A stretch of DNA of 62,377 nucleotides, filler included, from Sphacelaria rigidula (lineage: Eukaryota), in NCBI GenBank assembly GCA_964200075.2. It is 5 parts of 5 records of this genome, joined end to end, with 100 filler letters (N's around TTAATTAATTAA, not from the genome) between each part and the next. Parts side by side here need not be neighbours in the genome. Positions count along the whole stretch, not along the records: positions 24,994 to 37,388 come from CAXNAA020003817.1; 4 more parts are not named here. The stretch is one strand, 5' to 3'. The notes under the pieces are model-generated. The model saw nothing but the letters and a program-made list of their open reading frames with translations, made no database searches and was not told the DNA's origin. Below, piece by piece: positions 1-49,983 of this stretch. A program made the position numbers and the translations under genes. Position 1 is the stretch's first letter. Each line of letters begins with the position of its first letter.

Positions 1-419
1 GGCGGGGGCGTGGGGGGGCGGGGGGCGGTGGGGGTGGGGGGGGGGGGGTGGGGTTGGTGGGGGGGGGGGGGGGGGGGGGGGAGAGTTCCAAGTCCTAGTG
101 TTATCGTTGGTTGCGGCAACCACAAGAAGGACCCATCTCCGCAATCATAGGCAAGGCGGTGGATATCTTGAATGGACAGATCACAGTTGGACTATGTTTC
201 ACCAAACGCACCTCATTGGCCCCCGATGTTTTTGATATTTTGTGATCATGAGCACGGCGCTTTACAGTGCCGACAGGAAATAGGTGATGTACCGCTAAAC
301 GTCCCGTTTTTGTGCTGTGAAAATTCTACGTTGCCTGGCTACCCCGCCCGTTCTCACACTGTGCCAAACGTTATCTTGAGGAGTTTCGGGGTTCTTTCTT
401 GCTCGGCTTCCTGCGACAG

Positions 420-1838: not shown

Positions 1839-2557
1839 GCGAGTTTGCAAATCACGGACAGCTAGAGGGCGGCCTGTGTTGCCAGTCGTCAGCTATGCTA
1901 CCGTTTTATCACGGAAGCGCTCGCGTAGAAGTACGTTCAAATGAATAGTATCACGTACTTCAGTTATACGCACTTGCTTCCAGCTGAAATCGTGTCACAG
2001 TAGCAGTTGGAATGCGCATTGGGAATAGTTTGAAAAGGAATATTCACCTACCTCGGCGATGGTTTATTTGATCGAGTGTCTCACTGTGACTGGGTCCCCT
2101 CCGAATCTAACCATGGTCTCTGGGCGCAGTAGCTAAAGGTAGTGGATAATGATGATAACCGTGTTAACTGGATGAAAGTTTGGCCTCGAGCCCAAGCCGT
2201 TCGGGAATACGTACTGCCGATTGGGTCCAGCTTTTCCGTGTTTCTGCTTCGATGATGATTGCAGCATAATGCTCCATAACTTCCCCGCCCTTCGTGAAAG
2301 TGTCCCGACAGCCCTTGTAGCCATTTGTGGAGAACATAGACGACGTTCCTCACGGATGGCCCTGCACGCTGATCTATTGGCCATCGTGTTGGACGACCTG
2401 ATGAGATTTTTCGTGTATCATTTGAGCACGAACGTTTTCCAACAAATGAAGCGCGTACCGTTACAACTCTAGATTGTGAGGAGGGCATCTTCGAAATGGA
2501 TGAAGCAGAGACCAATGCTCACAACTGACCGTGTCGGGTTGTCGCCGATTTACACAG

Positions 2558-12398: not shown

Positions 12399-12498
12399 NN
12401 NNNNNNNNNNNNNNNNNNNNNNNNNNNNNNNNNNNNNNNNNNTTAATTAATTAANNNNNNNNNNNNNNNNNNNNNNNNNNNNNNNNNNNNNNNNNNNN
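12399..12498. other. Artificial contig linker
   Basis: N44-TTAATTAATTAA-N44, a six-frame stop linker. Confidence 0.97.
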
Positions 12499-17225: not shown

Positions 17226-18452
17226 TCAACTTTCCCAAGGGCCAGTCCAGTTCAAGGATAATTTCGCCTTCAACACTTTGTCCAAAGATGATGATTTCGA
17301 GCTAGCCCCTTGATTGATGGTCTTCAAATCGTTATACACCCATGCCCATTGGCCTACCGTCCACACCGGGCGGTTATGTACCACATCATCCAACATCGAG
17401 TTCGCCCTGGCCACCTTGGCCAAATTGATTCGGTTCTGTTCTCGTACTACTTCATATGCAAGACGAAGGCGATTGCTAACCGACACATGATACTCTACAA
17501 CATCACGACCCAGACTCTGATGTCCTCCTGTATTTTTGCGTTCGAATACCGTTAAAGTTAACCTAGGCATGCATCCAATATGAATTTCATTCGGCGACAA
17601 TCCCGTAGCGGCATTGACTGAATTGTTGTAGTTCATTCGGACAAGGGGAAGGTGCAGATCCCAGTCCATCTGTCTCTCATTTGCTACAGCAGCAAGCATC
17701 TGTGTCATTGTATGTTTCACTCGTTCCGTTCCACCATTGATGGAAGGGAGATATGAACTAGTAAAAATGCGATGGGCACCCAAAAGGTCAATGACGGCGG
17801 CTGAAAGTTTGCCTGAAAAATGCGGGCCGTTGTCAGACAGTAAGCGTTTGGGCACACCCCACTGTGGGATGTACATGTATACAAGAATGTTGGCCGTACC
17901 ATCCGCGGTATAACTACTGGGGGGGACGGCGTGCATCACCGCATGTCGACTAAATCTATCCGTAAACAACAGAATATACTTGTTCCCACCATCCGTCAGG
18001 GGCAAAGGGCCAGAATAGTCCCACGAAACTACTTCACCAGGCCCCTTTGGGAGTGGCATGGAAACAATTGGCCAACGAACTGTTTGACGGTAAGTGGTTC
18101 GCGCCTGACACAATAGACAACGCTTCACCCACCAACGACAACACTGATCCATACACATCCACCAATAACAACATTCCAACGTCTGGGAGGTCCTCCTAAT
18201 GGCGCCTAAATGAGTCGATACCTGTGAATGGCATTCGTGTAGAACCCATGGGCGCAGGAGCATCGGGACATAGATGCGGACGGGTTCATCACCTAGCAAG
18301 CGAGCATGTCGACTTGTAGGCTTCGCCCTGGGGAGGGCTGCTGTGGGCCGGCGAACTAACAGAACTATACCATCATCCGTATGCAGCATACCTTTCCTTG
18401 AAAGTTCAGTAACTTCATCCTGTGTGGGCGCTTTGAGAGTCCCGGCTGGCAA
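17226..18452 (-). pseudogene. Retroviral-type integrase
   Basis: HHCC zinc finger (H..HLG...CLLCQ); DDE core (WDYSGP, SDNGPHF, GGTERV); GPY/F-like WTGPW. Confidence 0.95.
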
Positions 18453-19299
18453 AAGGAATTGGGTTTCTGAAAATGGACATGGGCAACCTTTAGATAGATA
18501 TTGGATAGCTGATTTATAAGCAGGCCCGGGCCCAATCGGCGTGGGAGAAGAGAATTAAACGTTCGTTGAATACGCCATCTGTTGAGGCGTCTACTTCGTG
18601 TTGGGTCGGTTCGAGGCGGGGTTGGCACGAAGCGGTGATTTCGGAATCAAGGGTGAGCCTACCAGTTGGTGTACTGTCAGACGGAACGTTACTCCTGCGT
18701 CGATTAGCGTGGAGGGTATTGTGGTGGTGTTTGCAATATCATCACCAAGGAAGGGGGGCACAGCCGTGGTTTCGGCTATGGTTGGCAGGGGCGGTACGGT
18801 CAAGGTCGATTTTCTGGGGGCCTTGTGTCGTGGAGGTTGAGAAGACGCAAGGAAAGTATCGGGGACCGGGGTGGGGGCAGGGAGGGGAAGGTCCGGACCA
18901 GATACGGCTATTTTGGTGGCCATTTCGGCGGTCCGCCGTCCACGAGTCCTACTCGAAATCAAATCTCGAACTTGAACTGGTGAGACGGAGTCAGCAAAGG
19001 ACGGTTCTACACCTGCTGCGAAAACCATGCGCTGGCCAGTTGCACGAAAATGATCATAGCCAACAGTATTCGTAGACAGTCCATTCCAAACTGAGTACAA
19101 CGATTCAGGTTGCAAGCTGCCTAGGACTGATGCGTGGGCTATGGTCATCAGCCCACCCATACCTAAAGCCGGCGTTTCTTTCGGTGAAAGTGGTGTGTAG
19201 AGACCTCTGTGTCCATTCCTGCCAATGAAATATACAATGTCTTCGGTGGTATCGGTGATACGTCCCATGGGGGATTTGTCGATAGGTTGAGCTGGTGTG

Positions 19300-20755
19300 G
19301 GCAAGCGTGACAAGAAGTCGGCGTTTGCGTTCTGGGGACCTGTGCGGTACTTCAGTTGAAAGTTGTAAGACGACAGGATTTCGAACCAGCGTTGTACCCT
19401 AGCGTTGTGTTCCGCCATTTTGGCAAGGCTTTCCAAAGACTTATAATCGGTATAAATCACAAACGGGATGTCATACAAATACTGACGCAGACGTCGCACG
19501 CCCCAAACAACTACGCCGGCCTCTTGTTCCATGACAGACCAATTCTGTTCATTCGTAAAAGTGGTGCGACTCAGATAGACAATGGGACGAACAGTAGCAT
19601 CGACTTGCTCCTGTTCTAATGTGCAGCCAAACCCAATTTGGAAGAATCTGTGTGGAGCCGAAGAGGGCGGGAACCCTGCTCCGCGGCCGACCAGTCGGAG
19701 AAGACGAGAATCGGTGGGCGCGAAAGGGTGTCAAGAATACGGCGGATGGTTTTTTCCATTTCCAATGTGAACACAATTTTCACCCCTTTTTTGAGGAGGG
19801 TGGCGAGGGTTTTTAGTGTTTGGGCAAGGTTTGGCAAGTACTGTCTGTAGTAGCTTAGACCTCCCAACAAGGAACGCAGTTGAGAAATGTCCCGTGGCAT
19901 GGGCGTATCGAAGAGTGCGGCGACCTTGTCGAGGTTTGGGCTACGACCGTCGGGGGTGATGCAATGACCCAAGAACCCAATCTTCGTGGCGCCAATACGA
20001 GATTTGGAGGGGGCGAGTTTCAAGTTGTGTTGTTCAAACCGATTAAAGAATGATACCAACTGTTCGACGTGTTCAGCCGGTGTGGAGCCGTGGCACACCG
20101 CATCATCAAGGTACATATGGCACTTGGGCAATCCATCAGTTATGCGGAACATTACACATTGAAACGCACCTGGAGCTCCGGCGGCACCTTGTGGTGTAAC
20201 CAGCCACTCGTACAAACCTGATGGCGTGCAAAACGCTGTCAGGTCAAAGGGATTTGGATCCATCACGAGCTGGTGGTAGCCGGACTGCATGTCAAAGTTC
20301 GGAAATACCTTACCCCCGCTAAGAGAGTCGACAATTTCATCCATACGTGGAAGTGGCAGCCGGGCGATTTTGGTGACAGCGTTCAATCGTTGATAATTGA
20401 CTGTCAGTCTGATTTTGCCATTCTTCGTACGGACGACTACTCAAGGCAAGGCCCACGGAGACGTCGAGTGCCGAAATAAACCGACGGATAAGTAACCATC
20501 GAGAAGTACCTGAATTTTATCCGCTAAGAGGGGATTCGCACGGTATGGACGCATAGCGATATGCGGAGTGCCATCAGGACTTTTGATCTTGAACGGTGTC
20601 GTGGTGCATCGACCTAGATCCAAGGATGCAGTAGAAAACCTTTCAGAATATCTAATCAAGATGAATCTCAATCTATCGATTATAGTAGGTGTCCAACCAT
20701 TGCCAGATAGATACAAAACAATATGCCGTAAGTGAGGGGGAATGTCATCCCACAA
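19300..20755 (-). pseudogene. Reverse transcriptase and RNase H (frameshifted)
   Basis: RT motifs PLPRMDEI, DMQSGYHQ, PQGAAGAPGAFQ, MYLDD, FLGH; RNase H motifs LHTDSS, EQEAGVVVW, YTDYKSL, NANADFLSR. Confidence 0.95.
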
Positions 20756-21306: not shown

Positions 21307-21500
21307 GAGTCATCCTACGATAGCGGGGGAGGTATTTTGGGCCAGTNNNNNNNNNNGGATCAATAACGCTCATCCATGCTGCCTGACACCGTTTGGAATC
21401 AAATGCAAGCGCAACGCAAGTGTGGAAGGACGTCTGACACACTTATGAGCCTTTTTTCCCCTGCAACCGAATACCCTACCCCCCTATCGTACGATGACTC
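21307..21500. mobile_element. MITE nested in pol, TIR GAGTCATCSTACGATAG, TSD TTCG (Sola-like termini); another end at 24829-24893
   Basis: Reads TTCG|GAGTCATCCTACGATAG ... CTATCGTACGATGACTC|TTCG; contains a 10-N gap. Confidence 0.8.
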
Positions 21501-23108: not shown

Positions 23109-24739
23109 TCAAGTTGTGCGGTGAGCATCAGGAGTGGATTGTTGGACGTCTTCCTGGCGTGGGGGATCCGTAGGACTAGGTGCAATCATCAGTGGTCGTC
23201 TTCCGTCTTGTGATTGTACCTGATTCTGCGTTTTGGAGTTTGCTGGGTCAGACTGAGTTAGACGTGGCGCCGAATCAGCGGGCCGCATCTGGTAGTGCAC
23301 TGTTTGGTACTGCGGGGTTTGGTAGCGGGAATTGTTACCATAAAAGCGATTTCCCCGTCTAGGGCGGTTGTTTTGGCCACGCGTGTCGCCAGATTGAGGG
23401 CGGCGGTAAGAACACATACGCGCTTGACAAGTTGTCCAGCACGATGCATATTGCGGATCGTGGAATATGTTATTCAAGACGCCGAATGCGTTTACAAACG
23501 GTGCCTCGCAGGTGCGGATGGAGTGGATGGGAACTCGGCCGTCGGCGGAGTACCCAGTTTGTCCATCGAAGCATATTCCGCAATTGAGGCATTTATCCTT
23601 GCACTCACGGATAAGCTCGTTACGGATGTTGGGTTCAACGTCGCGGGCCCAGAGGGGGGGGGGTCGTGGTTGTGCATGGAGGTGCTCACGTTGAACACCT
23701 CCGGCCAAGTTTCGTTGGCAAAGGGCCAGCTTAGGAATCGACTAGCAGATGCATCTGGTACCTGAACCTGGGCGGTCATCATGATTTCTCCTGTAGAAGT
23801 CATTGACTCGGGTTTCCACGCTGGTTGACTCGATTTCCTGCTGGGTTGCGTTCGTGATGCAGGGGCAACTGGAGTGGGGAGAGGTTCCTGACTAATTACC
23901 TGCGTACCGTGTTGGCTAAGCGCCGAAGTGGTGCCGTCCTGTCTCACTCCTATCGACTCGACAGCCTGTGTGCGGTCTGTACGCCACTCATCGAGTCGAC
24001 TCCATATTTCGTCGGGATTCGCAAATGTTGCTGCTGCAGTAGCTGCATCACCCACAAAAACACTCGGCATTAGACTGGGGTACTGTCGCCGCATACTGGA
24101 ACGAAAGAGAGACATTACCATCTCGTTGGTCGGGGCTAGTTCACGCCCGTCATCCACGGTGACCGATATTAGAGTGCGAAAGTCCTTCAAGTATTGATCG
24201 AAGGGCGTGCTCACGGGAACCTTGAGGGTGAGTAATCTCTCAATAGATTCCCCTTCGTAGCTGGTGTCAAGCGACGAGCTAAGCAACCGTAACAAACGTG
24301 TGAACGCCTCGTTCCCACTGGCGCCTTTGTTGAGGGCCCGCGACACTTGGTCGAAGTGAGCGTCGCACATTGCAGTAATTTTGGAGGATTGCAAGGAGTT
24401 GAGGTCAATCGCCTGCTCTAGTGCCCGATGCAACGGGCGGCTCCACCCATGGACCCACTCGCTGCTTTCGAGACTGACGGAGTTTGGGTCGCAAATGGCG
24501 AGAATACAGCTCAACAAATTCTTGAGCGGTGACCTCAACTGACTGCAGTTGAGACTTGCGTTGGATCCTGCAATGAAAGGCAACCGGGGTTTGACCTTAC
24601 CCACACTCTTGATGTTAAGTTGCAAATAAGCGCGTCGGATGCTGGGGGCGTCGCTGCGGGATGTGTGGGGTGGTGCAGATTGAGTTTGTGCACGTGTCTC
24701 CGTGTTGGGTAGGTCACTCTCCTTCTTTATTTCCACCAA
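23109..24739 (-). pseudogene. gag-like ORFs (frameshifted) with an atypical CCHC knuckle
   Basis: Lies upstream of PR. Capsid-like FDQYLKDFRTL segment and a CLNC...HSIRTC motif. Confidence 0.75.
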
Positions 24740-24893
24740 AGCCTAATTTTTGTCGGTTTTGACTGGCTTACCTTCCTCTTTCTCTTTCAAGAGGGAGTGA
24801 CGTTGCTTGGCATTGGTGGAAGACAGACGAGTCATCCTACGATAGGGGGGGGGGGTATTTGGTTGCACGAAAAACGAGGCTCATAAGTGTAGA

Positions 24894-24993
24894 NNNNNNN
24901 NNNNNNNNNNNNNNNNNNNNNNNNNNNNNNNNNNNNNTTAATTAATTAANNNNNNNNNNNNNNNNNNNNNNNNNNNNNNNNNNNNNNNNNNNN
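24894..24993. other. Artificial contig linker
   Basis: N44-TTAATTAATTAA-N44. Confidence 0.97.
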
Positions 24994-27120: not shown

Positions 27121-30100
27121 TTATGGCGCCGTGAAATCAGACGAATAGTGCTCTGAAACGGTCACCTCCGACTTGACGTTCGTCCCGTCCTCGGACACCA
27201 GCATGCCTGCGGGAGCCATGCTGCGGGCTGCCTGCGACGGGACTGGTTTACCAATGGTATGGGCTTGTTTGGCTCTTCTTGTAGCGCCACCCTTCAAGGG
27301 AACAGCTTGCTCGGACTGCCGCACATCACCAATACATGGCTGTCTTGAATATCCGCCCTTATCATTCAAGTCTTGCGGAGCTATCTCTAGCTTCACTTTT
27401 TTCGTGCGACTCAATGGTGTCTCAACATGACAAATGGCTGGCCGCGTGTATTTCCCGCAGCGGACGTCCACCATCACATCGTCGGTGTGCTGTGAGCAGA
27501 ACTCCACCTCCCTGCTTCCCGCCAACCCAAACGACGCCTGCTTGAAGCCCTCCCGAGAGCATGTGTTCTGCGTGACATTCACCATCCCGTCCTCGGCGTG
27601 CTGTGAGCAGAGCTCTGCCTTCGTGCTTCCCACCAAACCAAACGACGCCCGCTTCGAGCAATTGTCGCGGGAGCACGTGTTTCTCCAGACGTCCACCATC
27701 CCATCCTCGGCGTGCTGTGAACAGAATTTCGCCTTCTTGCTTCCCGCCAACCCGAACGACGCCAGCTTGAAGCAGTCCTCTCTGGAGCACGAGCTCTGCA
27801 TGACATCCACCATTCCGTCCTCGGCGTACTGTGAGCAGAACTCCGCTTCCTTGCTTCCTGCCAACTCGAACGACGCCTGTTTGGAGCAAGCGTCGCGGCA
27901 GTATGTGTTCTTCCAGACGTTCACCATTCCGTCCTCGGCGTGCTGTGAGCAGAATTTCGCCTTTTTGCTTCCCGCCGACCCATACGAGGCCCGCTTGGAG
28001 CAGCCCTCGCGGGAGCACGTGATTTTCCAGACGTTCACCATCCCGTCCCAGGCGTGCTGTGAGCAGAATTCCCCCTTCTTGCTTCCCGCCAACCCACACG
28101 ACGCCAGCTTGAAGCAGTCCTCTCTGGAGCACGAGCTCTGCATGACATTCATCATTCCGTCCCCGGCGTGCTGTGAGCAGAATTCCGCCTTTTTGCTTCG
28201 CACCAAACCAAACGACGCCCGCTTCGAGCAATTGTCGCGGGAGCACGTGTTTCTCCAGACGTTCACCATCCCGTCCCCGGCGTGCTGTGAGCAGAATTCC
28301 GCCTTTTTGCTTCCCGCCAACCCAAACGACGCCTGCTTGAAGCAGCCCTCGCGGGAGCACGTGTTCTGCCTGACATTCACCATCCCGTCCTCGGCGTGCT
28401 GTGAGCAGAATTCCCCCTTCTTGCTTCCCGCCAACCCGAAAGACGCCCGCTTCGAGCAATTGTCGCGGGAGCACGTGTTTCTCCAGACGTCCACCATCCC
28501 GTCCTCGGCGTGCTGTGAGCAGAATTCCGCCTTTTTGCTTCCCGCCAACCCAAACGACGCCTGCTTGGAGCAGTCCTCTCCGGAGCAGGTGTTCTGCCTG
28601 ACATTCACCATCCCGTTCCCGGCGTGCTGTGAGCAGAATTCCGCCTTTTTGCTTCCCGCCAACCCAAACGACGCCTGCTTGAAGCAGCCCTCGCGGGAGC
28701 ACGTGTTCTGCCTGACATTCACCATCCCGTCCTCGGCGTGCTGTGAGCAGAATTCCGCCTTTTTGCTTCCCGCCGACCCATACGAGGCCCGCTGGGAGCA
28801 GCCCTCGCGGGAGCACGTGTTATTCGGGACATTGATCATCCCGTCTCCGGCGTGCTGTGAGCAGAACACTCGCTTCCTATTACCCGCCAACCCAAACGAC
28901 GCCTGCTTAGAGCAGCTCTCTCTGGAGCACGTGTTTTTCCAGACGTTCACCATTCCGTCCTCGGCGTGCTGGAAGCAAAATATTTGCTTTCTGCTTCTCG
29001 CCAACCCAAACGACGCCTGCTTTGAGCAGTCGTCGCGGGAGCACCTGTTCCGCATGACATACATCATCCCGTCCTCGGCGTGCTGTGAGCAGAACACCGC
29101 CTTTTGGCTTCTCGCCAACCCAAACGACGCCTCCTCAGAGCAGCTCTCTCTGGAGCACGTGTTCTTCTTGACGTTCACCATCCCGTCCTCGGCGTGCTGT
29201 GAGCAGCATTCTGCTTTCTTGCTTCCCGCCGACCCAAACGACGCCTGCTTAGAGCAGCCGTCGCGGGAGCACGTATTCCGACTGACATTCATCATACCGT
29301 CCTCGGCGTGCTGCAAGCAGAATTCCGCTTTCTTGCTTCCCGCCAACCCAAACGACGGCCGCTTGGAGCAGCCTTCACGGAAGCACGTGTTTTTCCTGAC
29401 ATTCAGCATCCCGTCCTCGGCGTGCTGTGAGCAGTATTCCGCCTTCTTGCTTCCTGCAAACCCATACGACGCCTGCTTAGAGCAGCCCTCGCGAGAGCAC
29501 GTGTTCTTCGTGACATTCACCATCCCGTCCTCGGCGTGCTGTGAGCAGCATTCTGCTTTCTTGCTTCCCGCCGACCCAAACGCCGGCTGCTTAGAGCAGC
29601 CCTCGCGGGAGCACGTATTCCGACTGACATTCATCATACCGTCCTCGGCGTGCTGCAAGCAGAATTCCGCTTTCTTGCTTCCCGCCAACCCAAACGACGG
29701 CCGCTTGGAGCAGCCTTCACGGGAGCACGTGTTCTTCCTGACATTCAGCATCCCGTCCTCGGCGTGCTGTGAGCAGTATTCCGCCTTCTTGCTTCCCGCC
29801 AACCCGAAAGACGGTCTCGTAAAGCAGCTGTCGTGAGAGCACGTGTTCTTCATGACATTCGCCATCCCGTCCTCGGCGTGCTGTGAGCAGAATTCCGCCT
29901 TTTTGCTTCCCGCCAACCCAAACGACGCCCGCTTGGAACAACTCTCTCTGGAGCACGTGTTGTTCATGACATTCACCATCCCGTCCTCGGCGTGCCGTGA
30001 GCAGAACACCGCCTTTTTGTTTCCCGTCAACCCAAACGACGCCCGGTTATAGCAGGACTCCCTGGAGCACGTGTTCTTCTTGACGTTCACCATCCCGTTC

Positions 30101-30752
30101 TCGGTATGCTGTGAACAAAACATTCGCTTCTTGCTTCCTGCCAACCCAAATGACGCCTGCTTAGAGCAGCCGTCGCGGGAGCAAGTGTTGCTCCCGACAC
30201 TCACCATTCCGTGCTGGGCGTGCTGTGAGCTCAACACTCGCTCCCTGCTTTCCACAGACCCAAACGACGGCCCCTTGGAGCAGCCCCCTCTGGACAACGT
30301 ACTGTTGGTGACAGTCACCATCTCATGCTCGGCGTGCTGTTCGCAAAACATCCGCTTGTCTCCTGCCAACCCAAGCGACGCCTGCTTGCAGCAACCCTCT
30401 TCGGAACAGGTATACTTCGTCACATGAACCATCCTATCCCCGGCGTGCTGTGAGAAGAATTCCGCCTTCTTGGTTCCCGCTAACCCGTACGGCGTCCGCG
30501 TGGAGCGGCCCTCCGTGGAGCACGTGTTGTTGCTAACATCCACCATCTTGTCCTCTGCGTGCTGTGAGCAAAACTCCGCCTTCTGCTTCCTGCCAACCCA
30601 AACGACGGCCACATGGAGCAGCTCTTTGTGGAGCACTCCTCATCCTTGTCATTCACCATCCTGCCAAACTGGCGGGGTTTCGCAACATTGGCAGCGTAGG
30701 TAGCAGTAAACAAGTCAGCCATTCCGTTGTATGATTTGCCGGATTCGCCCAT
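27121..30752 (-). CDS. EsV-1-7 (C-x4-C-x16-C-x2-H) tandem-repeat protein, ~28 repeats of 38 aa, no introns in the coding region; 1-nt frameshift near 30584
   Basis: ORF 27121-30636 consists of TCSREGCSKQASFGLAGSKKAEFCSQHAEDGMVNVxxN repeats plus a ~110-aa tail. The N-terminus and first half-repeat lie in ORF 30480-30752. Confidence 0.92.
27454..30640. repeat. 114-bp coding minisatellite
   Basis: CATCCCGTCCTCGGCGTGCTGTGAGCAG recurs with a 114-nt period. Confidence 0.97.
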
Positions 30753-33700
30753 ATCAATTACACACCGGGCGGTACTACAGAGTGTGGAAGGTGTTTTTCA
30801 ATGAGTACTGTCGTAGTGCCGTCTCCTACATACCCTAATGCCATGACTGTACAATTTGGTACTGTAGTGTACTGTACTATGAGGGATGCACCACAGCGTT
30901 GTCGAGAGAATCGTGGACTGCCTGTATTTAACTGCTACACATTATCATATTGGCTATGATGTCGGGGTACAAACGGTACTAGAAGCACATCGAGGAGTGC
31001 AGGTGCGGCGAGCTTTACTCGGGCTATACAGGTTTCACGTATGGCAACATGCCGCAGGTCACGTGTGGAACGTGTTAGGTTGATAGCGTATATCTGGTGA
31101 TATCTTCAGGGTATGACACACAATCCCTTGCCCCCGACCCCGCCCCCGGGTCTGAATTATTCGGTAGGCAAGTGGGCATTTGCCAGTGTTCCAGAAGAAG
31201 GTATTTTGCTGCAACGTGCATCACGTATCCTCTTGATCTCAACGCATCATTTCCACGAGTACTGGGACGCACATCCCCCAACATCTTGACCCTCATATCG
31301 ACGGCAATTTCTTGAACATGATACATATGGCAGACTGCATATGAAGTGGGACAGATTCGCTTGGTAACCTACCAATCAGATCGCTCGATTTTGCTTGGGA
31401 CTCCCGAGGGGAGTACTCTTGAACCAAGTGTTCGTGCAGTCTAACTTGTAGCGCGTTTCAGCCGAATACAGTGTCATAGGTAATACATCGTACAGTATTG
31501 TACACTGAACACAATGCAGTAGTACGGTACAGTACAGGCGCCCAACATACGGCACCGGCAGGAGTGTCGCAGCAATGGACAGCGCGTTGTTTGTCTTACC
31601 CAAGACGAAACAGTCAACACACCCATGAAGCTTTCACCAGTGTGCAGCCAGCACTGCGTGCCGACCAACATAGTTTTCTGCAGAGGCGAACACGACGACA
31701 ATGTCGCAGCCCATGCGATCCAAACCGTGTTCACAATTTGTGAACACACCACAACAAAACAGTGGAAGCTCCGACACATGAGAGAGGGCTTGGGTATTTT
31801 TCCTGCGATGCAGTAGTGAACCAGGACATGTCCCATGTTTGAGTCCTCCGTCTGATTGTAAAGAGGTCTTCAATTTTGGGCCAGTGCCGAGTTTGAACAC
31901 TCGGCCATAGTCTCGCTTCTTTCATTTCATTTTGTTACCCTAATCTTAATTAAGCAGACTCTGTCCCGGTACATCTTCATTTTGCCATACATACCACCAT
32001 GTCTTGGGAGACGAGGCAGCCTGGAGAGGTGCAAGTGCTCGTTTAACCCCTGTTGCCGAATTTCATCCTCTTGCACTCTACTTGCTGCCCGTACTATACA
32101 TGCAGAATCTTCCGTGAATGAAAGCGTGTGCCGTGGGCTCGGCATTGTGTTGTATCCGTTTCTTCTCATTATATCGTCAGAGTAACAGTGCAATTCAATG
32201 GGTACTGGGATTTACCTACCTCAACCTCTCGCACAAACCCTCATTTCGGCGAGACCAGCGACACACGTCATGGTCAGTCTGATAGGAATCTTGGTTGAAT
32301 TCCTACTCCGGCAAGTAGCTTGACGTTTTGGGTTTCAAACGCAGGTTCAAGGCGGTCTTCTGATAGAGGACACAGATGCAAGGCGGTAGGTACTACAGAC
32401 AGCAGGAAGCCAACGACCCCAACACAGAATAATACCGTGCAATCAGTGCAAACAACAGTACAGCACCAGCTCAGGGGGGGTGTTCATTGTATCCTACACG
32501 GTCGCACACTGCGTGCAGTAAACGTTGCGTGTCGACAGCAGAGTCGTTACAATCAAATCTACTGCGGCATTGTAGCTTCGCGAGCTTGAGTGCAATTGCG
32601 TTTTCGCGCGACCGCTCAGGGTTCAGGATATGCAGTGGTGATTAACCGACCGTCGTGTACTGTACTGTGCAGTCACGGTACAGTCGTTGCAGCACAATAC
32701 TGTCCACACAACAAAGTAATATGTTAAGTCACTCAACTATATACAGCACAGATGCACCACTCTCTTTAAACCCTACAAACTGTGCTCCCTGGAGGTTGCG
32801 TAAAATGTAAGCCGCATAACACGGTGCACAGCAGTTATCGCGACCTGTACCTCCTGTTATCAGAGTGATGTGGGTGCTCCTGTACATGGAACCTCACGTC
32901 CACCGTCCACCTGCATTCTCAAGGACTAGTATGCCAAAGGCAAGATAGTTTTGTGTCGTACAATGCATACAGTAGTTGCGTCTGAATACCTACGACGGGG
33001 TCAGACAGATTTCCATATTGGTGCCGAGAGTGCCCGAAAACTTGAAAGGGTGCATAGTATCTCCTCAAGCTGAAATTTGGTGGTCACGGAGCATGAGGGG
33101 GGATGGGGGTTCCAGGGAATTCTGTGCGCCCTTCAAGTGAAATATTGTTATCTGGCGTGCATATAGTATGTTCTCATCGTATGATGTCGAACGGTCTCAA
33201 CGTTTTCAACGACTTCTATTGGTTATGCTTGATCCAAGTCATTATCTGGACCATACTGAAGTCGAGTAGTGAACGTCCCCGTGTACTATGTCTACCAAGT
33301 TGGGTATTTTCTGTCTCAAGCCACGCAGTTACCTCTACGTTTTGACTTTAGAATATGCACACTGTACTCAAATGATCATGGCTTTACCTGATCCAAGTAA
33401 AGCAGTTGGCTTATACTGAAACCAATTTTGTCTTCCCCTGGTGTCTTCCCTGGTTTTGGGGGCAGCGAGGAGACAACGCTTCCGGGCGCATCGAAAGTTA
33501 ATCGGTCGTGCCGATCTTTGTGTGGAATTCTACATAACAGCATCCCTGAATAAAACATTATCTGTGCAACAACCGAAAACAGCACGGGGCGTGCTTGTGC
33601 ATACCGAGGGTCTGCCAACTGATTGTGGAATACACCAGATCGTGGCATTCATGGGAGTTAATATTGTGTTTGAGTGCGACGTGTTCAACAGCCTCGGTTG

Positions 33701-37388: not shown

Positions 37389-37488
37389 NNNNNNNNNNNN
37401 NNNNNNNNNNNNNNNNNNNNNNNNNNNNNNNNTTAATTAATTAANNNNNNNNNNNNNNNNNNNNNNNNNNNNNNNNNNNNNNNNNNNN
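37389..37488. other. Artificial contig linker
   Basis: N44-TTAATTAATTAA-N44. Confidence 0.97.
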
Positions 37489-37805
37489 TTTGACCATTGA
37501 CCACGCATCCCTTTCGAGACGGAGCACGGAGAGGGGAGGGGGGGAGGGGTGCTCCACAGAAACGTCACAACATCTCATGACACATTGAAGGGTGACGCGG
37601 CTTGGCTCATAACATCACGATACACGTATGAGAAACAAAAGCCGTGACTGACGCACTACGAGGGCAGAGGTGATCCAAGAGGCAAAACACATTCAACAAC
37701 GTGCGTTTCGCACGAGTTCTTGGCAGACGAGGATAAAATACGATCGAGATGTATACCACGGTGCATATCCACCACGACAATATTTGTACAGCAGGTAACA
37801 CTCAC

Positions 37806-38168
37806 CCTGTGCCCGCCTGCGGCCGACACAGTGTGGCCTCTTTTGGGGGGAGGCTCTTCGGCATCTTCGGCGCTCAGACAAAAGGTAACCGGAACACCAC
37901 CGGACGCCACCCCCGACCGCCGGGACGGGTTGCCCACCAGTCCCACCGCTGCACCGGCAGCCGTATCATGGGCCATCGACCGCGGTCCGTCGCGTGGGCG
38001 CTTGGAGGGGCTAGCGCTGCTGCACTTGCCACCAGTCGTGGTGCTGCCCCGGCGACTAGCCATGTCCACCATGTGGTCGAACTTATGCGCGGCGCAGAAG
38101 CGGGCGCGCTCGCCCTCCTCGCCGTACCTCGGGCGCTTGATGCAACCGGGCTCTGCGCAGCGGGGATT
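37806..38168 (-). CDS. EsV-1-7 domain gene B, exon 2 (third repeat NPRCAEPGCIKRPRYG...FCAAHKFDHMVDM plus basic PPPKRG)
   Basis: Acceptor ATACAG|AAT and donor AGG|GTGAGT; 363 nt, phase 0/0. Joins exon 1 as VDVK|NPRC. Confidence 0.85.
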
Positions 38169-41100
38169 CTGTATCGTTTCGTGTGTGTACAACGGGGTGG
38201 GGAGAATGGAGGACCGGGTTGCGTGTGGGGCAGGAACACGAGAGAAATGGTCAAGGGCAAGGGGCGTACTCATTTGTTGCTTGCCTTAGTCATTTGACCA
38301 TTGACCACGCATCCCTTTCGAGACGGAGCAAGGGGGGAAACAGACGTTTGCCTCGAGGTTTGCAATCATCAACCTTGTACCCTACTGAGATGGCCTTTAT
38401 TTTGTGACCCAGGGGTTGACTCGTGTGTTGAATCGGCACTATTTTTACGTTTCTACTCGGAATTTGAAATTTGGATGGAAAACCCACTTGACCAATCATG
38501 CATGTCACAGTTGACGCTTCGACCGCCAGGGCGGGTATTATGTCGGGTCGGCATCATCTTCAATTGAAAAACAATTGTGAGACCGAGATGACCCAAGCCG
38601 TCCAGTGAAGTCTTGCTTACGTGCTGGACTGACAAAGGCTGCCTAATTAGTCCTCTCGCTATGCACGGCGCAATTCTAATACATGCGGTATGACAATTTG
38701 ACACCGGATACACAGCACGTTAAACCAACCACTATCTGGAATCAGACGGTGCGTATATTTATATTTCCAACCCCAGCTCCAGCCGATGCATACTTTTGGG
38801 CCGTCTTACCATCCTCAAAATCGCTTCTTGGCGAACAAAAAAAAACTCCAGGACTCGATCATTTGTCTGTTTGAAAGGTTGGCGGGAACTGAAGAGAAAA
38901 ATGCGGCCACCGCGAAACGCAAAGGTGCCCTGGATTCGTCTCATCGAGGCATATCAAGGCATTTCAAGGTGTCAAAACCTGCCTGTAGCGCTTGCAGACA
39001 TCCGCGACATGCATGTGGGGAGAGTTGAGGAGTATACATCGCTCGTTTTCCTCATAGTCCGTCTGCAAATCGGACGTCCGGATATTCGGACATCCGCCAC
39101 TTTTTTCAATGCGCGGATTGATCCGGATCAGGCTGCTCAACCCTTCGACCGCGAAGGTAGGTCACCTACTGAATCGGCATCAATTTCACCTGGGAAAAGT
39201 ATATGATCCAGACGAACTACCCGCATCGCGGTCTACGGGTAAAAATCCGAAATCCGCCCCCCTTTGAAAAAATTTAACGGAGCACATCTCTAGAAATGAG
39301 CGGCCCCTGCAACATGGCTTCGATGGCGAAGATTTTGGGCAACAATCTTACTGATACTAGTAGCTCATGTATAGACCAAGGAGCTATGGGAATAGAATCG
39401 GACTTATCTCTTTCGACCTCAATATTTGAAGTAGTATTTCGGTATACAAGAAAGGAAACTTCCCCAGCACAATCAATTACATTTTGCCACGATCGAGTGC
39501 TAGGATGCTATCGACTAGAGGTGGAACGTAGCCTCAACAGTCACGTGTCTTTCCCCCCATCGTAAAATATGATGCGACAGAAAGTTCTGCCAAGCGTTAT
39601 GAGAAGCAGCTCCAGAACCTATATCGTCAGTTTCGCCCGATAATGAAGTCGTGCGGGTATATTATTTACGCAAGACAAAAGACGCTTTCGTCAGGATGTA
39701 AGCTGCTAGGGCTGGGTATAAAAAGGGATCTCCTGCGATCGGGACTAGATGTTCTTGGCGGATTGCGGCCGTTCTCGAGACATATTCAGTGCAAAGGATT
39801 ATTGAAATTAATGCTAGGTAATATTCCTGTCGGGTATGCTTGATTGCTTGATTGTCGCAAATATTGTAGAGTGATCCCTGAGGAATTCAGCCGTACTCAC
39901 AGAACGGGCATCCACAAGGGGACAACAACAAAAGAGCTCAATACGAGAAACTCGGAGGAAGGCACAAAGAAAGATACCTCAGAACGATACATTTGAGTTG
40001 AAATATTTCGTGAAGGGCTCGGGCGTTGGTGGAAAACGGAGAACAGCAGGAGCCGTGAAAATGCTTTTCCAAAGAGATGTTTGTTCCTTTCGTGTGCTCC
40101 CAAGACTTCAAGTCGCGCTGCATCTCAATGGTGTGATCGGACAGCTGTGGGTGCGATGGTGAATCATTTTCGTCGAGTTTCCTCGAGATGTGAAACTCCG
40201 TCATGATTTGAACTAAGAAGGGTCCGCCGACGTCACGCAATGGAAGATTTTGAAAAAACGTGAGAGAGCTGACAGCTGGAATCATTCCGGAAACGCAACA
40301 CAGACCCCAGACAATCACAACACCTTGTGAGGGTGGGTTCCAGAGCTCTTTGGAAAAAACAAACTGCGAAGACAACCCGAACAAAAAAATGTGAAGCATA
40401 TTTTACCCATGGTTGCTCCACGGAAACAGCCAATATACTACCCCACATCGCAAGCTTCGCGACGGTACCTCAGCCGATGGACCGTATCAACATTGTTTTC
40501 TACGAGAAGAAAAAACGCAATGGCCACGCTATCAGGAGATTGATTGAACTTCGCGGTTTGATCGGGCTCAAATTGTGCAGTGCGCAACACCGCACTACCC
40601 TGTATGTGTCGGTCGCCCTGTGGATTGGGAATGTATGACGATATGTGCTCAAGAACACATCGTATAGACTTAAGGGCGAGACCCCGCAGGGAGGCAAGGG
40701 CTTTGTATTTGTAAAATCACAAATGAGGGTCTCGAAGTTACCCCACACGTGGTTGGTTCGTCAACAGACAAGAAATACACACGTCATTCTATTTCAAACA
40801 ACGTGGACGATGGATGTGGTCATGGACTGGGGAACAGACTAGTTCTTCTCGTGTACTGTTGGGATATGATCAGCACGTTGTGTAGGTGTATGGGATCTTA
40901 CCTTGACATCGAGCATGCCGTCCACCTTGTGTGCGCTACAAAAGCGGGCCTTTTCGCCTTCCCAGCCAAACGTGGGCTGCCTCACACACCCCAACGCCGA
41001 CTCGCAGCGAGGATGCTGCGCGGTCCATCATATCGCATATGATCAGCAGAGGTTGAGGGGGAACAGCAGCAGAGGGAAGGGGTGAAGCCCTGATCAGCGG

Positions 41101-41295: not shown

Positions 41296-42731
41296 GTAGC
41301 TGTCTCGAATAAGGTATGAGGAAATCAACCAAAACTGAAAAAGGAGTTCCTGGGTTAAAAAGGGGGAGATGCAGAAAACAGTTACTGTACAAATGCAAGG
41401 GAGGAAGGCGCAAGAGCTAGGGGTAAAGGTGACAAATTCTGAAATACTCGTTGAACTTACAACCCCGCACCTACGAAAAGGATCTGTTGTTCAGTTGTTC
41501 GCCGATAGTTTTGGCATCAATGCGCAACGTTCATTTTGATCGCCGAAGACGAAATCCTGAAACAACCGTTCTCCCCGAACGCAGGAAATTGTAGCTCTGA
41601 CGCTACGCACGATATGTGTCTTGGATCATCGTGGACAGACAGTATCGCGTCTGGACATTAGTAGATGGTGCTCACTTATTCCAAATCAAGGCAAGGGGTG
41701 TGGAGTTTGGGTATGTGCTTGTACAGAGCGGACCGATGCCGGCAGGGGGAAACAATGAGATAGCTTGGTATGTTCCTATCTGCCCACATCTTAAAGGCGA
41801 ATAATTGTCACCCACAATTACATGAGAGTATTGCGAACACCAGGAACCATCCAAGTGCGTACGCATATGCATGCGTGGCGGAGGCGGAAGGGGATTGAAT
41901 ATACGATAACCATGAGATGGGAAGATACGATACCTCACCTGCCTACTAACCTGCCCCAACCGTTCCACCCCATCCCCTCCCCTCCTGCGCTACAAATACA
42001 AAATTGTACTTTTCCAGTAGTTTGGAGAGAAAATGCTTGTTGAAGAGGGAGGGGAAGGCGAACGCGGCCACAGTCGGAGATAGTTGTATTCCCTGCTTTT
42101 TCGGCCAAGTCTCCGCGGGTGTGCTAGAGTGCTGGATTGAGAAACACGGGGTCTCAAAGAGAGTAAAGAGTGGCTAGTGCCACCAGGGTGGGATCTCCCT
42201 TACACCCTTGCGGCACAGGAGGATAAAGGAAATATGTCACCCACAAACAGCGAGAGCGAAGAGCCATAAACACTCAGTGCGTACGGCCAACCCACATCGG
42301 TCACCCCCCTGATATGAGAGGGGAAAAAAAACAAAGCGAGAGAGAGGGAGAGAGAGAGAGACCAAAAAAAGACGCGAGGATGGAACTGGAAAAGTGAACA
42401 ACACCGTTGTAACGGATTTTCATGCAGCTATACGGTACACTAATCCCTGAATGAAAGCGCGAGACGAAAACTTGAGCCATACAGAGCACCAGATGTACCT
42501 TCACGGATGTACTAGATTTTGTCCTCTCGCGCGCACTGTCAGTCGAGTTCCGCACTGCCGCGTGTTTACTCCTCTACTTCGTTTGCACATGGTCTGACAA
42601 CAAATGTACATTAAGCCGACATTACCACGGGGAGTGTGTACAACAGACAAAATACCATAATATCACCCAAGACACAGCTACGGGAGTGAAAAAAACTCCA
42701 AACAAAACAAACCCGAAACGTGACTACTGAC

Positions 42732-43167
42732 CTTGACATCCACGTAATTGTCTCTCTTGTGCTGGCTGCAATACTCCGCCTTCTCGCCTGGAAGCGCATA
42801 ACGCGGCTGCTTCATGCATCCTTCGCTTTGACACCGATTTCGCTTCACCACGTCCACCATGCCACCGGTGCGATGCTCAGCGCAGCGAGAGGGCTTCTCG
42901 CCGCGACGCTGTGCATGGGTCGGACGTTTGCCGCAGGCCTCGAAACTGCACTTGCTGCTACCCCCTCCCAGGCTGCTGTTCTGGTTCAGAGACATGATTT
43001 CCGTATGAGATCTTGATGACGGTGGCCTGCTTCCCATCGGGTCGTGGTGGTTGCCGCTGTAATTAACCATACCAATCGCAGGTGAGGTAATGGTGGTGGT
43101 GGTTGGTGTCGCGCCGTTGTCATGCCCGCCATGTTTGTTGCTGTGCAGCTGTTGTTCCTCAGAGGGA

Positions 43168-43221
<54 letters not shown>

Positions 43222-44174
43222 GTGGCATGTCGATTGTCGTTTACAGCCAACGTGCCGCTGATGGCGATATGTCTTGTTGAGTTTCCACCGCTATCACCAC
43301 CGCCGCCCCGAGCATTGCCCGTCACCTCGATTACATCACCCCCCCGAGTATGCACCAGCCTACTGCCATAGCGATGGTAGCGCCCGCAGTGATGGTGGCG
43401 ATCGATTGCACCGGCCTGTTCAAAATTCGACACCGACCGCATGGTTGAAGTGTCTGCGGGACCCTGGTGCGTGGGCAGCACATGGTACCCGTCCTCTCGT
43501 CTGCTGCTGCTCTGCCTGCTGGTGTCATGGCGGTAGTACTCGTCGTAGTATAGCTCATCACCACGGGTCGTTGGCGCAACCGTATGATGATGATCGTCGG
43601 GGCCAGGACTAATACCTACAGCGGCTCCAGCAGTGGAAGTCGCAGTAGTAGGAGAATGACACTCGTTGCCGCTGCCTAGCCTCCTGCCGTCTTGCCTCAA
43701 GTGTTGGTGTGGCGGAGAGAACGCCCCTACTCTCGGAGACGGGGAAACGACAAGGTCTGGACGGTGGTTCCTCTCTCTGGATCCCTGGTCTACATCGTAA
43801 AACGACGGCGAAGATCCAACCCCTTCGCCATGGTGGTGTTGGTAACCAATCGGATACACAACCTCTTCATCACCGCCGCCGCCTCCACGACCACCACCAT
43901 TATCACGGCGGTGCATCAGCGCACCGCCCACCCGCTTAGATTGTGGAATGCCCTGTAACAGACTGGAAACAGGCCTGAGCCACGAGCGAGGGTTGCCTCC
44001 ATTGTTGACTGGGTTTCCGAAATTGCGCGAGATGGCCCCGGGGATTTGAGGCGCAGCTACAGCAGCGGACCGCGGTGATGGAAGCATTGCTGTGTAGCCA
44101 CCCGCGATGCAAGTAGAGTGCTGGCTTCCTCCCCAACGGTTTGGTGTCTGCTGCTGCCTCCTCTCTTGAGTCAT
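42732..44174 (-). CDS. EsV-1-7 domain gene B, exon 1: ~410-aa disordered His/Gly/poly-Ala region plus two EsV-1-7 repeats
   Basis: CSFEACGKRPTHAQRRGEKPSRCAEH and CQSEGCMKQPRYALPGEKAEYCSQH; donor AAG|GTCAGT, phase 0. Confidence 0.85.
43172..43216. repeat. (CAG)15 microsatellite encoding poly-Ala
   Basis: Read directly from the sequence. Confidence 0.95.
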
Positions 44175-49883: not shown

Positions 49884-49983
49884 NNNNNNNNNNNNNNNNN
49901 NNNNNNNNNNNNNNNNNNNNNNNNNNNTTAATTAATTAANNNNNNNNNNNNNNNNNNNNNNNNNNNNNNNNNNNNNNNNNNNN
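49884..49983. other. Artificial contig linker
   Basis: N44-TTAATTAATTAA-N44. Confidence 0.97.

What the first reader, a model, noticed from the sequence alone, without database searches (positions are those of the whole stretch)
27454..30640. TALE/PRDM9-like array: ~28 near-identical EsV-1-7 Cys3His repeats varying at a few fixed positions
Seen: the 38-aa scaffold (C2, C7, G14, C24, H27, M32, V35) is nearly invariant, while variation concentrates at positions 5-6 (EG/DG/ES/DN/ED), 8 (S/F/Y), 10 (Q/R/L/E) and 36-37 (KK, MN, RK, SR, TK, WK, PN, RQ, WR, MQ, TQ). Known: EsV-1-7 repeats occur in the Ectocarpus virus EsV-1 and in a brown-algal family that includes IMMEDIATE UPRIGHT; to my knowledge the ligand is not established. 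Inference: a minisatellite-encoded putative zinc-binding array with localised hypervariability is the architecture of modular nucleic-acid readers such as PRDM9 and TALEs. This could be an undescribed repeat-to-base recognition code, for example in antiviral or anti-transposon surveillance.
Basis: partly seen in the sequence, partly recalled or inferred. Interest (0 to 1): 0.8.

Follow-up and report, generated by a model that had tools for sequence, protein, structure and literature searches.

The report
Record-length EsV-1-7 zinc-repeat array gene
A brown-alga-type gene encodes 28 tandem copies of a small cysteine-rich "EsV-1-7" module of unknown function, and a few surface positions change much faster than the rest, which marks candidate binding residues but does not show a DNA-reading code.

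Summary
The array is real. A 114-bp unit is repeated 27.7 times at 27469-30622, inside a minus-strand ORF of 1171 codons. Pfam EsV_1_7_cys (PF19114) matches it 28 times. "Near-identical" is overstated: units average 79-82% DNA and 67-72% protein identity.

Variation is uneven. Fold-defining residues are under purifying selection. Codons 36-37, 6 and 10 change at or above the synonymous rate. Positive selection is only marginal and not robust: M2a vs M1a gives p=0.037, 0.11 or 0.26 depending on the repeat set.

It is a member of the known, expanded brown-algal EsV-1-7 family, with more repeats than any of 184 fetched relatives (maximum 16).

The two-repeat model is confident, with no solved-structure neighbour. 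It superposes on viral EsV-1-7 proteins, four of them named endonuclease. This scan earlier noted EsV-1-7 arrays fused to nucleases in giant viruses on other DNA. DNA binding is therefore plausible but untested, and a repeat-to-base code is unsupported.

A real 1-bp deletion in repeat 1 cuts the array off from the upstream reading frame.

The parts
27454..30639 (-). Array of 28 EsV-1-7 units of 38 aa (114 bp). Unit 1 is 30639-30526 and unit 28 is 27567-27454. Of the 27 full units 2-28, 23 keep all four Cys/Cys/Cys/His ligands; units 2, 4, 25 and 28 do not.
   Evidence: TRF; Pfam, 28 stretches; unit table; ligand table
30584..30585 (-). Site of a 1-bp deletion in the Lys19 codon of unit 1, relative to the unit consensus. 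It shifts the frame between the upstream part of the exon and the array ORF.
   Evidence: Alignment of unit 1 to the consensus unit shows a single one-base gap. Contigs of X1, X5, X6 and X7 cross the site with no indel (tables 4 and 8).
30640..30668 (-). Start of the large exon, made of a decayed remnant of a further unit ('unit 0').
   Evidence: Alignment to the consensus unit. Contigs of X6 and X7 match only up to 30670.
30669..30670 (-). Putative 3' splice acceptor (AG after a pyrimidine-rich run). Contigs of two runs guessed to be RNA leave the genome sequence here and continue with unlike sequence.
   Evidence: table 7 (loose ends at 30670 in X6 and X7) and table 8 (records 17 and 25); sequence
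30544..30546 (-). First ATG in the array frame (Met32 of unit 1). It opens a 1141-codon ORF and has A at -3 and G at +4. Four out-of-frame ATGs precede it in the same exon.
30480..30659 (-). 59-codon upstream ORF in the ancestral frame of units 0-1. It runs out of frame after the deletion and overlaps the ATG at 30546.
27121..27453 (-). Non-repeat C-terminal tail (110 aa, pI 9.4, no Pfam match) and the stop codon at 27121-27123.

Best explanation
This is a member of the large brown-algal EsV-1-7 domain family (Pfam PF19114), in a cluster with two other family genes. Its one large exon encodes the longest array of the module seen here: 28 units of a Cys-x4-Cys-x16-Cys-x2-His putative zinc-binding mini-domain. 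Shown: the array grew by duplication of single units and short blocks. Fold-defining residues are under purifying selection. A short stretch across each unit junction (36-37 of one unit, then 5-6, 8 and 10 of the next) is the least constrained part, with site 36 evolving faster than synonymous sites. Inferred: these positions lie on the exposed surface around the zinc knuckle and the first beta-strand, and form the ligand-facing patch of each module. Inferred mechanism: the protein is a multivalent binder that lays many slightly different modules along an extended ligand. DNA is the most likely ligand, because viral proteins with the same repeat fold carry nuclease or primase annotations and a transposase has captured the domain. 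The variation is best read as relaxed constraint, with at most weak diversifying selection, and not as a demonstrated one-repeat-one-base code. This copy carries a fixed 1-bp deletion in unit 1. The array can therefore be translated only from an internal ATG behind upstream ATGs, or not at all.
For: Family and anatomy: PF19114 at 1283.8 bits with 28 stretches, TRF, unit table. Neighbouring ORFs at 37656-38285 and 42678-44180 also match PF19114.

Coding constraint: nucleotide diversity by codon position is 0.104/0.126/0.222 outside the hot codons. NG86 dN/dS is 0.35 overall and 0.09 at the scaffold. MG94 omega is 0.57 globally, 0.12 at the scaffold and 0.44 at the other 32 sites.

Hot positions: site 36 has beta 2.75, p=0.0007. 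16 of 94 differences in close pairs fall in codons 36-37. M2a places sites 36, 6, 10 and 21 in an omega 1.87 class.

Same positions in other arrays: 37 and 10 are among the eight most variable positions in 6 of 7 other homogeneous arrays, 8 in 4 of 7, and 36 in 3 of 7.

Growth by duplication: units 9/12 are 99.1% identical, 10/13 95.6%, 17/24 and 18/21 94.7%.

Length: the maximum is 16 motifs in 184 fetched relatives. No higher-scoring array appears among 1.84 billion representatives.

Fold: the two-repeat AF2 model has pLDDT 89.3 and consists of short strands. The best BFVD match is EsV-1-7 itself (E 1.6e-8, TMq 0.80, rmsd 1.6 A). Of 23 matches at E<=0.001, four are named endonuclease and one DNA primase.

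Other support: the transposase fusion (PMC12477816, passage). The array is mildly basic (pI 8.8, net +35 over units 5-27). Deletion and frames.
Against: No binding data of any kind exist here.

The model coordinates could not be read, so the claim that the variable positions share one surface rests on chain order, DSSP and the alternating 8/10/12 pattern. It is not measured.

The six-repeat model has pTM 0.32, so no superhelix can be claimed.

The positive-selection signal is not robust (p=0.114 and 0.263 in two of four data sets). Gene conversion between units can inflate such tests.

Position 6 is hot only in this array (0 of 7 others), while position 12, hot in 6 of 7 others, is conserved here.

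None of the 10 closest relatives with long tails that were scanned has a nuclease or any other Pfam domain above cut-off. The nuclease names in BFVD are database labels, not tested here.

Weak PDB neighbours are RING-type protein-binding fingers (Z 2.2-2.5).

The frameshift and four upstream ATGs argue that this copy may not make the array protein.
Confidence: 0.6

Rival explanations
1. One reading: each unit reads one base or a short word of DNA or RNA through residues 36/37/6/8/10. The array is kept diverse by positive selection, as in PRDM9 or TALEs, possibly to track viruses or transposons.
For: Variability is localised and significantly non-uniform. Site 36 has beta 2.4-3.8 times the synonymous rate. 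M2a vs M1a gives p=0.037 with all units. Positions 10 and 37 recur as variable in 6 of 7 other arrays. Viral proteins with this fold are named endonuclease (4) and DNA primase (1) among 23 matches. Earlier notes of this scan describe nuclease fusions.
Against: Units are only 79-82% identical in DNA with dS 0.43, so the array is not a homogenised minisatellite. Selection tests lose significance with units 5-27 or intact units only (p=0.114, 0.263). With a free local synonymous rate, omega at 36-37 is 0.96. Other positions (21, 22, 29, 33, 34) also vary. There is no effector domain. This copy is frameshifted.
Confidence: 0.12
2. The modules are protein-binding or otherwise non-nucleic-acid zinc knuckles, in the way LIM, RING and PHD fingers are. 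The array is a scaffold, and its exposed, unconstrained residues simply drift.
For: The only PDB neighbours, all weak, are RING domains (2yhn_A Z 2.5 and 2.3; 4auq_E Z 2.2) and PHD/LIM/nsp13 zinc-binding domains at Foldseek E>0.8. Omega at the hot sites is statistically compatible with 1 in most tests. Variable positions are also the family-wide variable ones (entropy 3.5-3.8 bits at 8, 10, 36 and 37 in 138 family repeats). The one genetically studied member, IMM, has no known biochemical function (PMC7457493, passage).
Against: The structural matches are far below any meaningful threshold. Fusions of the repeat to nucleases, a primase and a transposase point to DNA instead.
Confidence: 0.2
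3. This copy is a transcribed pseudogene. The array evolved under selection in the past, but the 1-bp deletion in unit 1 now prevents its translation, and the end units are decaying.
For: A one-base gap appears in unit 1 relative to the consensus. Contigs of four runs from three studies cross the site with no indel. All three frames entering the exon stop within 62 codons, and four out-of-frame ATGs precede the first in-frame ATG. Units 2, 4, 25 and 28 have lost ligands. A second copy of 30581-30724, about 93% identical, exists in the DNA contigs and in contigs of a run guessed to be RNA, and could be the working gene (records 2, 10 and 18).
Against: The 1141-codon ORF from ATG 30546 is intact, and that ATG has a strong context. 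However, three of the six frames of the unit are stop-free, so ORF length is weak evidence. All 20 units 5-24 keep their four ligands. Two of the youngest pairs, 17/24 and 18/21, still differ mainly at positions 36-37.
Confidence: 0.3

Closest known systems
EsV-1-7 domain family (Pfam PF19114 / IPR043822): EsV-1 gene 7, Ectocarpus IMMEDIATE UPRIGHT, and the hundreds of brown-algal paralogues
   Same: Same Cys3His motif and 38-aa period. Arrays consist of the repeat alone with no other Pfam domain, the genes are clustered, and the distribution is brown-algal or stramenopile. Pfam matches at 1283.8 bits. The model superposes on EsV-1-7 Q8QNQ2 at rmsd 1.6 A with 51% identity. Literature passages describe the family as a possible new class of zinc finger, expanded and tandemly clustered (10.1101/2024.02.19.579948; 10.64898/2026.04.27.720984).
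   Different: It has 28 units, against at most 16 in 184 fetched relatives. The best relative is only 48% identical. The units are unusually alike (72% protein identity in the core, compared with 0.34-0.78 in the 30 other arrays listed). The scaffold is conserved beyond the family consensus. Unit 1 is frameshifted.
Giant-virus EsV-1-7 arrays fused to Vsr-like or other endonuclease domains
   Same: Same repeat fold: Faunusvirus A0A3G4ZWE6 at TMq 0.88 and rmsd 1.1 A, Brazilian cedratvirus A0A2R8FFX4 at TMq 0.80. Both are tandem arrays with variable residues.
   Different: No nuclease or other catalytic domain is present here, or in the 10 closest relatives scanned. This is a host-type nuclear gene with an intron, not a viral gene. 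The nuclease identity of the viral proteins was not tested here.
PRDM9 and KRAB-type C2H2 zinc-finger minisatellite arrays
   Same: A tandem array of small zinc modules encoded by a minisatellite-sized unit in one exon, with variability concentrated at a few positions.
   Different: A different fold and family (no PF00096). There is no KRAB or SET domain. Units are only 79-82% identical in DNA. dN/dS above 1 is not robust. DNA binding is unknown.
TALE repeats (Xanthomonas)
   Same: Many similar tandem units of 33-38 aa, with a di-residue hot spot (here 36-37).
   Different: TALE units are helical hairpins without metal. These units are Cys3His modules with short strands. Variation is not confined to the di-residue, and no code is known.

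Membership tests
EsV-1-7 domain family (PF19114) | Match to the Pfam model above its gathering score | tested here: met
   1283.8 bits against a cut-off of 25, with 28 stretches
EsV-1-7 domain family (PF19114) | Cys-x4-Cys-x16-Cys-x2-His ligand pattern in tandem units of about 38 aa | tested here: met
   23 of 27 full units have all four ligands. Spacing is 38 aa 25 times and 37 aa twice.
EsV-1-7 domain family (PF19114) | Same fold as the founding viral protein EsV-1-7 | tested here: met
   Predicted model against predicted model only: Q8QNQ2 at E 1.6e-8, TMq 0.80, rmsd 1.6 A over 72 columns
EsV-1-7 domain family (PF19114) | Zinc binding by the four ligands | not testable with these tools
   No metal in the AF2 models and coordinates not readable; needs ICP-MS or a solved structure
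PRDM9-like zinc-finger minisatellite | Units near-identical in DNA outside the contact codons (concerted evolution) | tested here: not met
   Mean identity 0.79-0.82 and dS 0.43. Only a few young duplicates reach 95-99%.
PRDM9-like zinc-finger minisatellite | Strong positive selection at fixed contact positions | tested here: inconclusive
   M2a vs M1a p=0.037, 0.114, 0.263 and 0.0002, depending on unit set and tree. Site 36 has beta 2.4-3.8.
PRDM9-like zinc-finger minisatellite | C2H2 fingers plus KRAB/SSXRD/SET domains | tested here: not met
   PF19114 is the only Pfam family above cut-off; the tail has no match
PRDM9-like zinc-finger minisatellite | Allelic variation in unit number and composition | not testable with these tools
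   The read-laying tool does not take long repeats, so only the 5' flank was laid
TALE-like repeat code | Helical 33-35-aa repeats with variation essentially confined to one di-residue | tested here: not met
   DSSP shows short strands with no helical hairpins. Sixteen of 38 positions exceed 1 bit of entropy.
TALE-like repeat code | One repeat specifies one base | not testable with these tools
   Needs binding experiments
EsV-1-7 array nucleases of giant viruses | C-terminal Vsr-like or other nuclease domain | tested here: not met
   No such domain in the ORF or its tail

The most novel reading that the evidence does not exclude
EsV-1-7 units are modular, sequence-specific nucleic-acid readers. 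Their specificity residues would be the junction patch 36-37 / 5-6 / 8 / 10 (and 12 in other arrays). This 28-unit host array would then be a natural long-site reader diversified by selection, making it a third class of programmable repeat code beside zinc fingers and TALEs.
Probability: 0.12. Interest if true: 0.85.

Novelty: new member of a known kind. Interest (0 to 1): 0.4.

Why it matters
The EsV-1-7 repeat marks one of the largest gene families in brown algae and includes a developmental regulator, yet passages from two papers read here call its function unknown or uncharacterised. This array has 23 intact, recently related modules in one protein. That makes it a natural mutational scan: it separates the residues the fold needs from a small junction patch that is free, or pushed, to change. 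The patch gives concrete residues to mutate or swap in binding assays. Together with the viral nuclease fusions, it makes "does EsV-1-7 bind DNA, and through which residues?" directly testable. As it stands, this is a large and somewhat damaged member of a known family, not a demonstrated new system.

Tried and rejected
- **Whole genome:** none is held for this window, so paralogues and the second copy could not be searched.
- **Sequencing runs:** no RNA holder is listed. X6-X9 are only guessed to be RNA.
- **Read cover:** X6 and X7 have no cover over 30703-31308 and 32016-33328. I do not use this as evidence.
- **Array reads:** I did not lay reads on the array itself, because the tool turns long repeats away. 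Unit-number polymorphism is therefore untested.
- **Upstream exon:** a 23-letter piece of the sequence that follows the contigs' break has 0 matches in the window at up to 3 mismatches. No joint to another place in 30400-33400 was listed. The 5' exon(s) and the true start remain unknown.
- **Upstream-frame peptide:** a search with the 62-aa peptide of that frame found no homologue among longer proteins.
- **Sequence search of solved structures:** 0 hits at E<=1.
- **Foldseek against PDB:** 0 hits at E<=0.001 for either model.
- **VIA-align against 48,161 chains:** only RING domains, at Z 2.2-2.5.
- **ESM Atlas** without PF19114: no usable hit.
- **Related loci:** none in viral contigs (the alignment query was rejected as too variable). 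None in metagenome contigs with the tail or with six units.
- **Alternative frames:** the + strand 800-aa ORF and the other minus-frame ORF give only summed fragments of unrelated Pfam models, with 0 stretches passing alone. I rejected them as repeat artefacts.
- **Higher-order periodicity:** none is clear (mean identity 0.81-0.84 at all offsets 1-12).
- **CpG decay as the cause of site 36 variation:** rejected. Most of its codons differ by transversions, and 5 of 27 contain CpG. CAG/CGG at site 10 could be CpG-related.
- **Per-site two-rate fits:** these did not converge for about ten sites (rows at 1.00/1.00 with negative LRT). I use only the one-rate fits and the grid fits.
- **Entropy comparison with family repeats:** the correlation is weak (Spearman 0.35, and 0.17 without the ligand columns).
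- **Literature:** the Macaisne et al. 2017 paper is not held. Supplements are closed, so Table S17 of 10.1101/2024.02.19.579948, which lists family members, may already hold this gene or longer arrays.
- **Pfam scan of all of alignment A2:** Ten relatives were scanned instead.
Full report
**1. The observation**

Tandem Repeats Finder reports a single array at 27469-30622, with period 114, 27.7 copies, 79% matches and score 3440. It lies inside a minus-strand ORF at 27121-30636 of 1171 codons.

Pfam EsV_1_7_cys (PF19114) matches this ORF at 1283.8 bits against a cut-off of 25, with 28 separate stretches. Nothing else is above its cut-off. The 28 histidine anchors are 38 residues apart 25 times and 37 apart twice.

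The highest entropies are at 36 (2.73 bits), 37 (2.20), 6 (1.88) and 10 (1.68).

Two parts of the wording do not hold.
- The units are not near-identical. Mean pairwise DNA identity is 0.79 (units 2-28) or 0.82 (units 5-27). Protein identity is 0.67 or 0.72.
- Positions 22, 34, 33, 21 and 29 vary more than the listed positions 8 and 5.

The open frames on the other strand and in another minus frame give only summed fragments of unrelated Pfam models, with no stretch passing alone. They are by-products of a stop-free repeat unit.

**2. What it is**

The window is eukaryotic nuclear DNA of brown-alga type.
- The named relatives come from Sphacelaria, Scytosiphon and Ectocarpus.
- A Ty3/gypsy-like pol region lies at 17226-20440.
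- Two further minus-strand ORFs, at 37656-38285 and 42678-44180, also match PF19114.

This fits published passages that describe the EsV-1-7 family as a possible new class of zinc finger. Those passages report that it is greatly expanded in brown algae, with up to 335 members in one species. They also report that its genes tend to sit in tandem clusters and that it has one genetically studied member, IMM (10.1101/2024.02.19.579948; 10.64898/2026.04.27.720984; PMC7457493).

A search of 1.84 billion representative proteins finds 6449 relatives at E<=0.001. The best is only 48% identical. Among the 184 relatives fetched, the largest motif count is 16. This 28-unit array is therefore the longest seen here.

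That claim is limited by gene prediction on fragmentary contigs. It is also limited by the closed supplements: Table S17 of the first paper may list longer arrays.

**3. How the array evolved**

Some neighbouring blocks are young duplicates: units 9/12 are 99.1% identical, 10/13 95.6%, and 17/24 and 18/21 94.7%. Most units are old, with pooled synonymous divergence of 0.43.

The frame is under coding constraint.
- Nucleotide diversity at codon positions 1/2/3 is 0.104/0.126/0.222 outside the four hot codons.
- NG86 dN/dS is 0.35 overall and 0.09 at the seven scaffold codons.
- An MG94-type fit on an IQ-TREE tree of the units gives omega 0.57 globally, 0.12 at the scaffold and 0.44 at the 32 non-listed sites.

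Variation is clearly non-uniform.
- A two-class model beats one omega (lnL -1353.98 against -1368.10).
- In nine close unit pairs, 16 of 94 nucleotide differences fall in codons 36-37, where 5.3% is expected (p=3e-5). Twenty-five of 94 fall in codons 6, 10, 36 and 37 (p=1e-5).

**4. Is it positive selection?**

Against the array-wide synonymous rate:

| Site | beta | p |
|---|---|---|
| 36 | 2.75 | 0.0007 (about 0.03 after correction for 38 sites) |
| 6 | 1.73 | not significant |
| 10 | 1.75 | not significant |
| 21 | 1.61 | not significant |
| 37 | 1.35 | not significant |

With a free local synonymous rate, omega at 36-37 is 0.96.

M2a against M1a depends on the data set:

| Units and tree | p |
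|---|---|
| All 27 units (omega2 1.87 for about 10% of sites) | 0.037 |
| Units 5-27 | 0.114 |
| The 22 units in 5-27 that keep all four ligands | 0.263 |
| All units, tree built without the hot codons (favours the hypothesis) | 0.0002 |

Exchange between units can also inflate such tests. The fair statement is that these sites evolve at or somewhat above the neutral rate. Site 36 is a credible single candidate for diversifying selection, and a PRDM9-like signal is absent. Most codons at site 36 differ by transversions, and 5 of 27 contain CpG, so a CpG hot spot does not explain it. CAG/CGG at site 10 might be CpG-related.

**5. Do the same positions vary elsewhere?**

Seven other arrays with fairly homogeneous units were compared, listing the eight most variable positions in each:

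| Position | Arrays in which it is among the top eight |
|---|---|
| 37 | 6 of 7 |
| 10 | 6 of 7 |
| 12 | 6 of 7 |
| 8 | 4 of 7 |
| 36 | 3 of 7 |
| 5 | 3 of 7 |
| 6 | 0 of 7 |

Across 138 canonical family repeats, positions 8, 10, 36 and 37 are among the most variable (3.5-3.8 bits). So are 1, 3, 4, 25 and 26, which are conserved in this array. The hot patch is thus partly a family property. The alternating positions 8/10/12 suggest one face of a strand, joined by the linker 36-37.

**6. Structure**

A two-unit AlphaFold2 model built on 122 sequences is confident (pLDDT 89.3, pTM 0.59). It shows only short strands near positions 10-15, 23 and 32-34. A six-unit model has pLDDT 73.7 but pTM 0.32, so the relative arrangement of units is not predicted.

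Neither model has a meaningful neighbour among solved structures:
- Foldseek: 0 at E<=0.001.
- VIA-align: best RING domains at Z 2.2-2.5.
- Sequence search: none.

Against predicted viral structures the two-unit model has 23 matches at E<=0.001. EsV-1-7 itself leads them (E 1.6e-8, TMq 0.80, rmsd 1.6 A). Four matches are named endonuclease and one DNA primase.

Coordinates could not be read. That the variable residues share one surface around the zinc knuckle is therefore an inference from three things: they are contiguous across the unit junction (36, 37, then 5, 6, 8, 10), the DSSP pattern, and the alternation of variable and conserved residues.

**7. Function**

No experiment bears on the ligand. 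Indirect evidence points to DNA:
- The nuclease and primase names above.
- A Mariner-type transposase with an N-terminal EsV-1-7 domain (PMC12477816, passage).
- Earlier unchecked notes of this scan on giant-virus arrays fused to Vsr-like nucleases, one of which reports no fixed-position code.

Against over-reading this:
- This ORF and its tail carry no other domain.
- None of the 10 closest long-tailed relatives scanned has another domain above cut-off.
- The array is only mildly basic (pI 8.8).

My best reading, at about 0.6, is a multivalent zinc-module binder whose junction patch faces the ligand. DNA is the leading candidate ligand, and the variation is mostly relaxed constraint. A true repeat-to-base code I put at about 0.12.

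**8. Gene integrity**

Unit 1 aligns to the unit consensus with a single one-base gap in the Lys19 codon, between 30585 and 30584. Contigs of four runs from three studies cross this site without any indel: X1 and X5 (DNA-like) and X6 and X7 (guessed RNA) (tables 4 and 8). X1 may be the source sample. The deletion is therefore not an assembly error.

Contigs of X6 and X7 match 30400-30670 exactly. They then continue with unlike sequence, right at a pyrimidine-rich CAG motif (table 7). I read this as a 3' splice site. The upstream exon was not found in the window.

From that exon start, all three frames stop within 62 codons. The array frame reopens after two TGA codons, and its first ATG is at 30546 (1141 codons, good context). 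Four out-of-frame ATGs precede it.

So the array is either translated from this internal ATG, or this copy is a transcribed pseudogene (about 0.3). A second copy of 30581-30724, about 93% identical, is present in the X1 and X5 (DNA-like) contigs and in a contig of X6 (guessed RNA) (records 2, 10 and 18). It is not in the window.

**9. Verdict**

This is a real, unusually long and internally structured member of a known family, with a reproducible map of constrained and free positions. The analogy to PRDM9 and TALEs holds for layout only. The defining features that could be tested were either not met (near-identity of units, effector domains, helical units) or inconclusive (positive selection).

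Noticed in passing
window 17226-20440 (-): Ty3/gypsy-like retroelement pol region. Three consecutive ORFs match reverse transcriptase (RVT_1), RNase H (RT_RNaseH) and integrase (Integrase_H2C2 + rve), and are split by frame changes.
   Followed up: partly
window 37656-38285 (-) and 42678-44180 (-): Two more EsV-1-7 family ORFs, with one and two units, on the same strand as the array. The second follows a long low-complexity region with a poly-Ala run and ends at what looks like a splice donor. Together with the array they form a family gene cluster.
   Followed up: partly
window 31309-32015: A very high-copy repeat just upstream of the gene. Summed contig depth reaches thousands to about 24,000 in the DNA-like runs, against about 70 in flanking bins, with many variant letters and internal joints. 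It is probably a small transposable element family (tables 2, 3 and 5).
   Followed up: no
window 30581-30724: A second version of the gene's 5' end, with 10 differences in 144 bases. It appears at similar depth in X1 and X5 contigs, and its 30581-30670 part (6 differences) in an X6 contig. It is a paralogue or a divergent allele and is not in this window (records 2, 10 and 18).
   Followed up: partly
window 12399-12498, 24894-24993, 37389-37488, 49884-49983 (also 21347-21356, 62060-62069): Pairs of 44-base N runs, 12 bases apart, recur every 12,495 bases. This looks like regular masking and not assembly gaps.
   Followed up: no
window 321-1865 (+) and 23492-24742 (-): Long stop-free frames of 514 and 416 codons with no Pfam match. 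The second lies next to the retroelement and may be its gag region.
   Followed up: no
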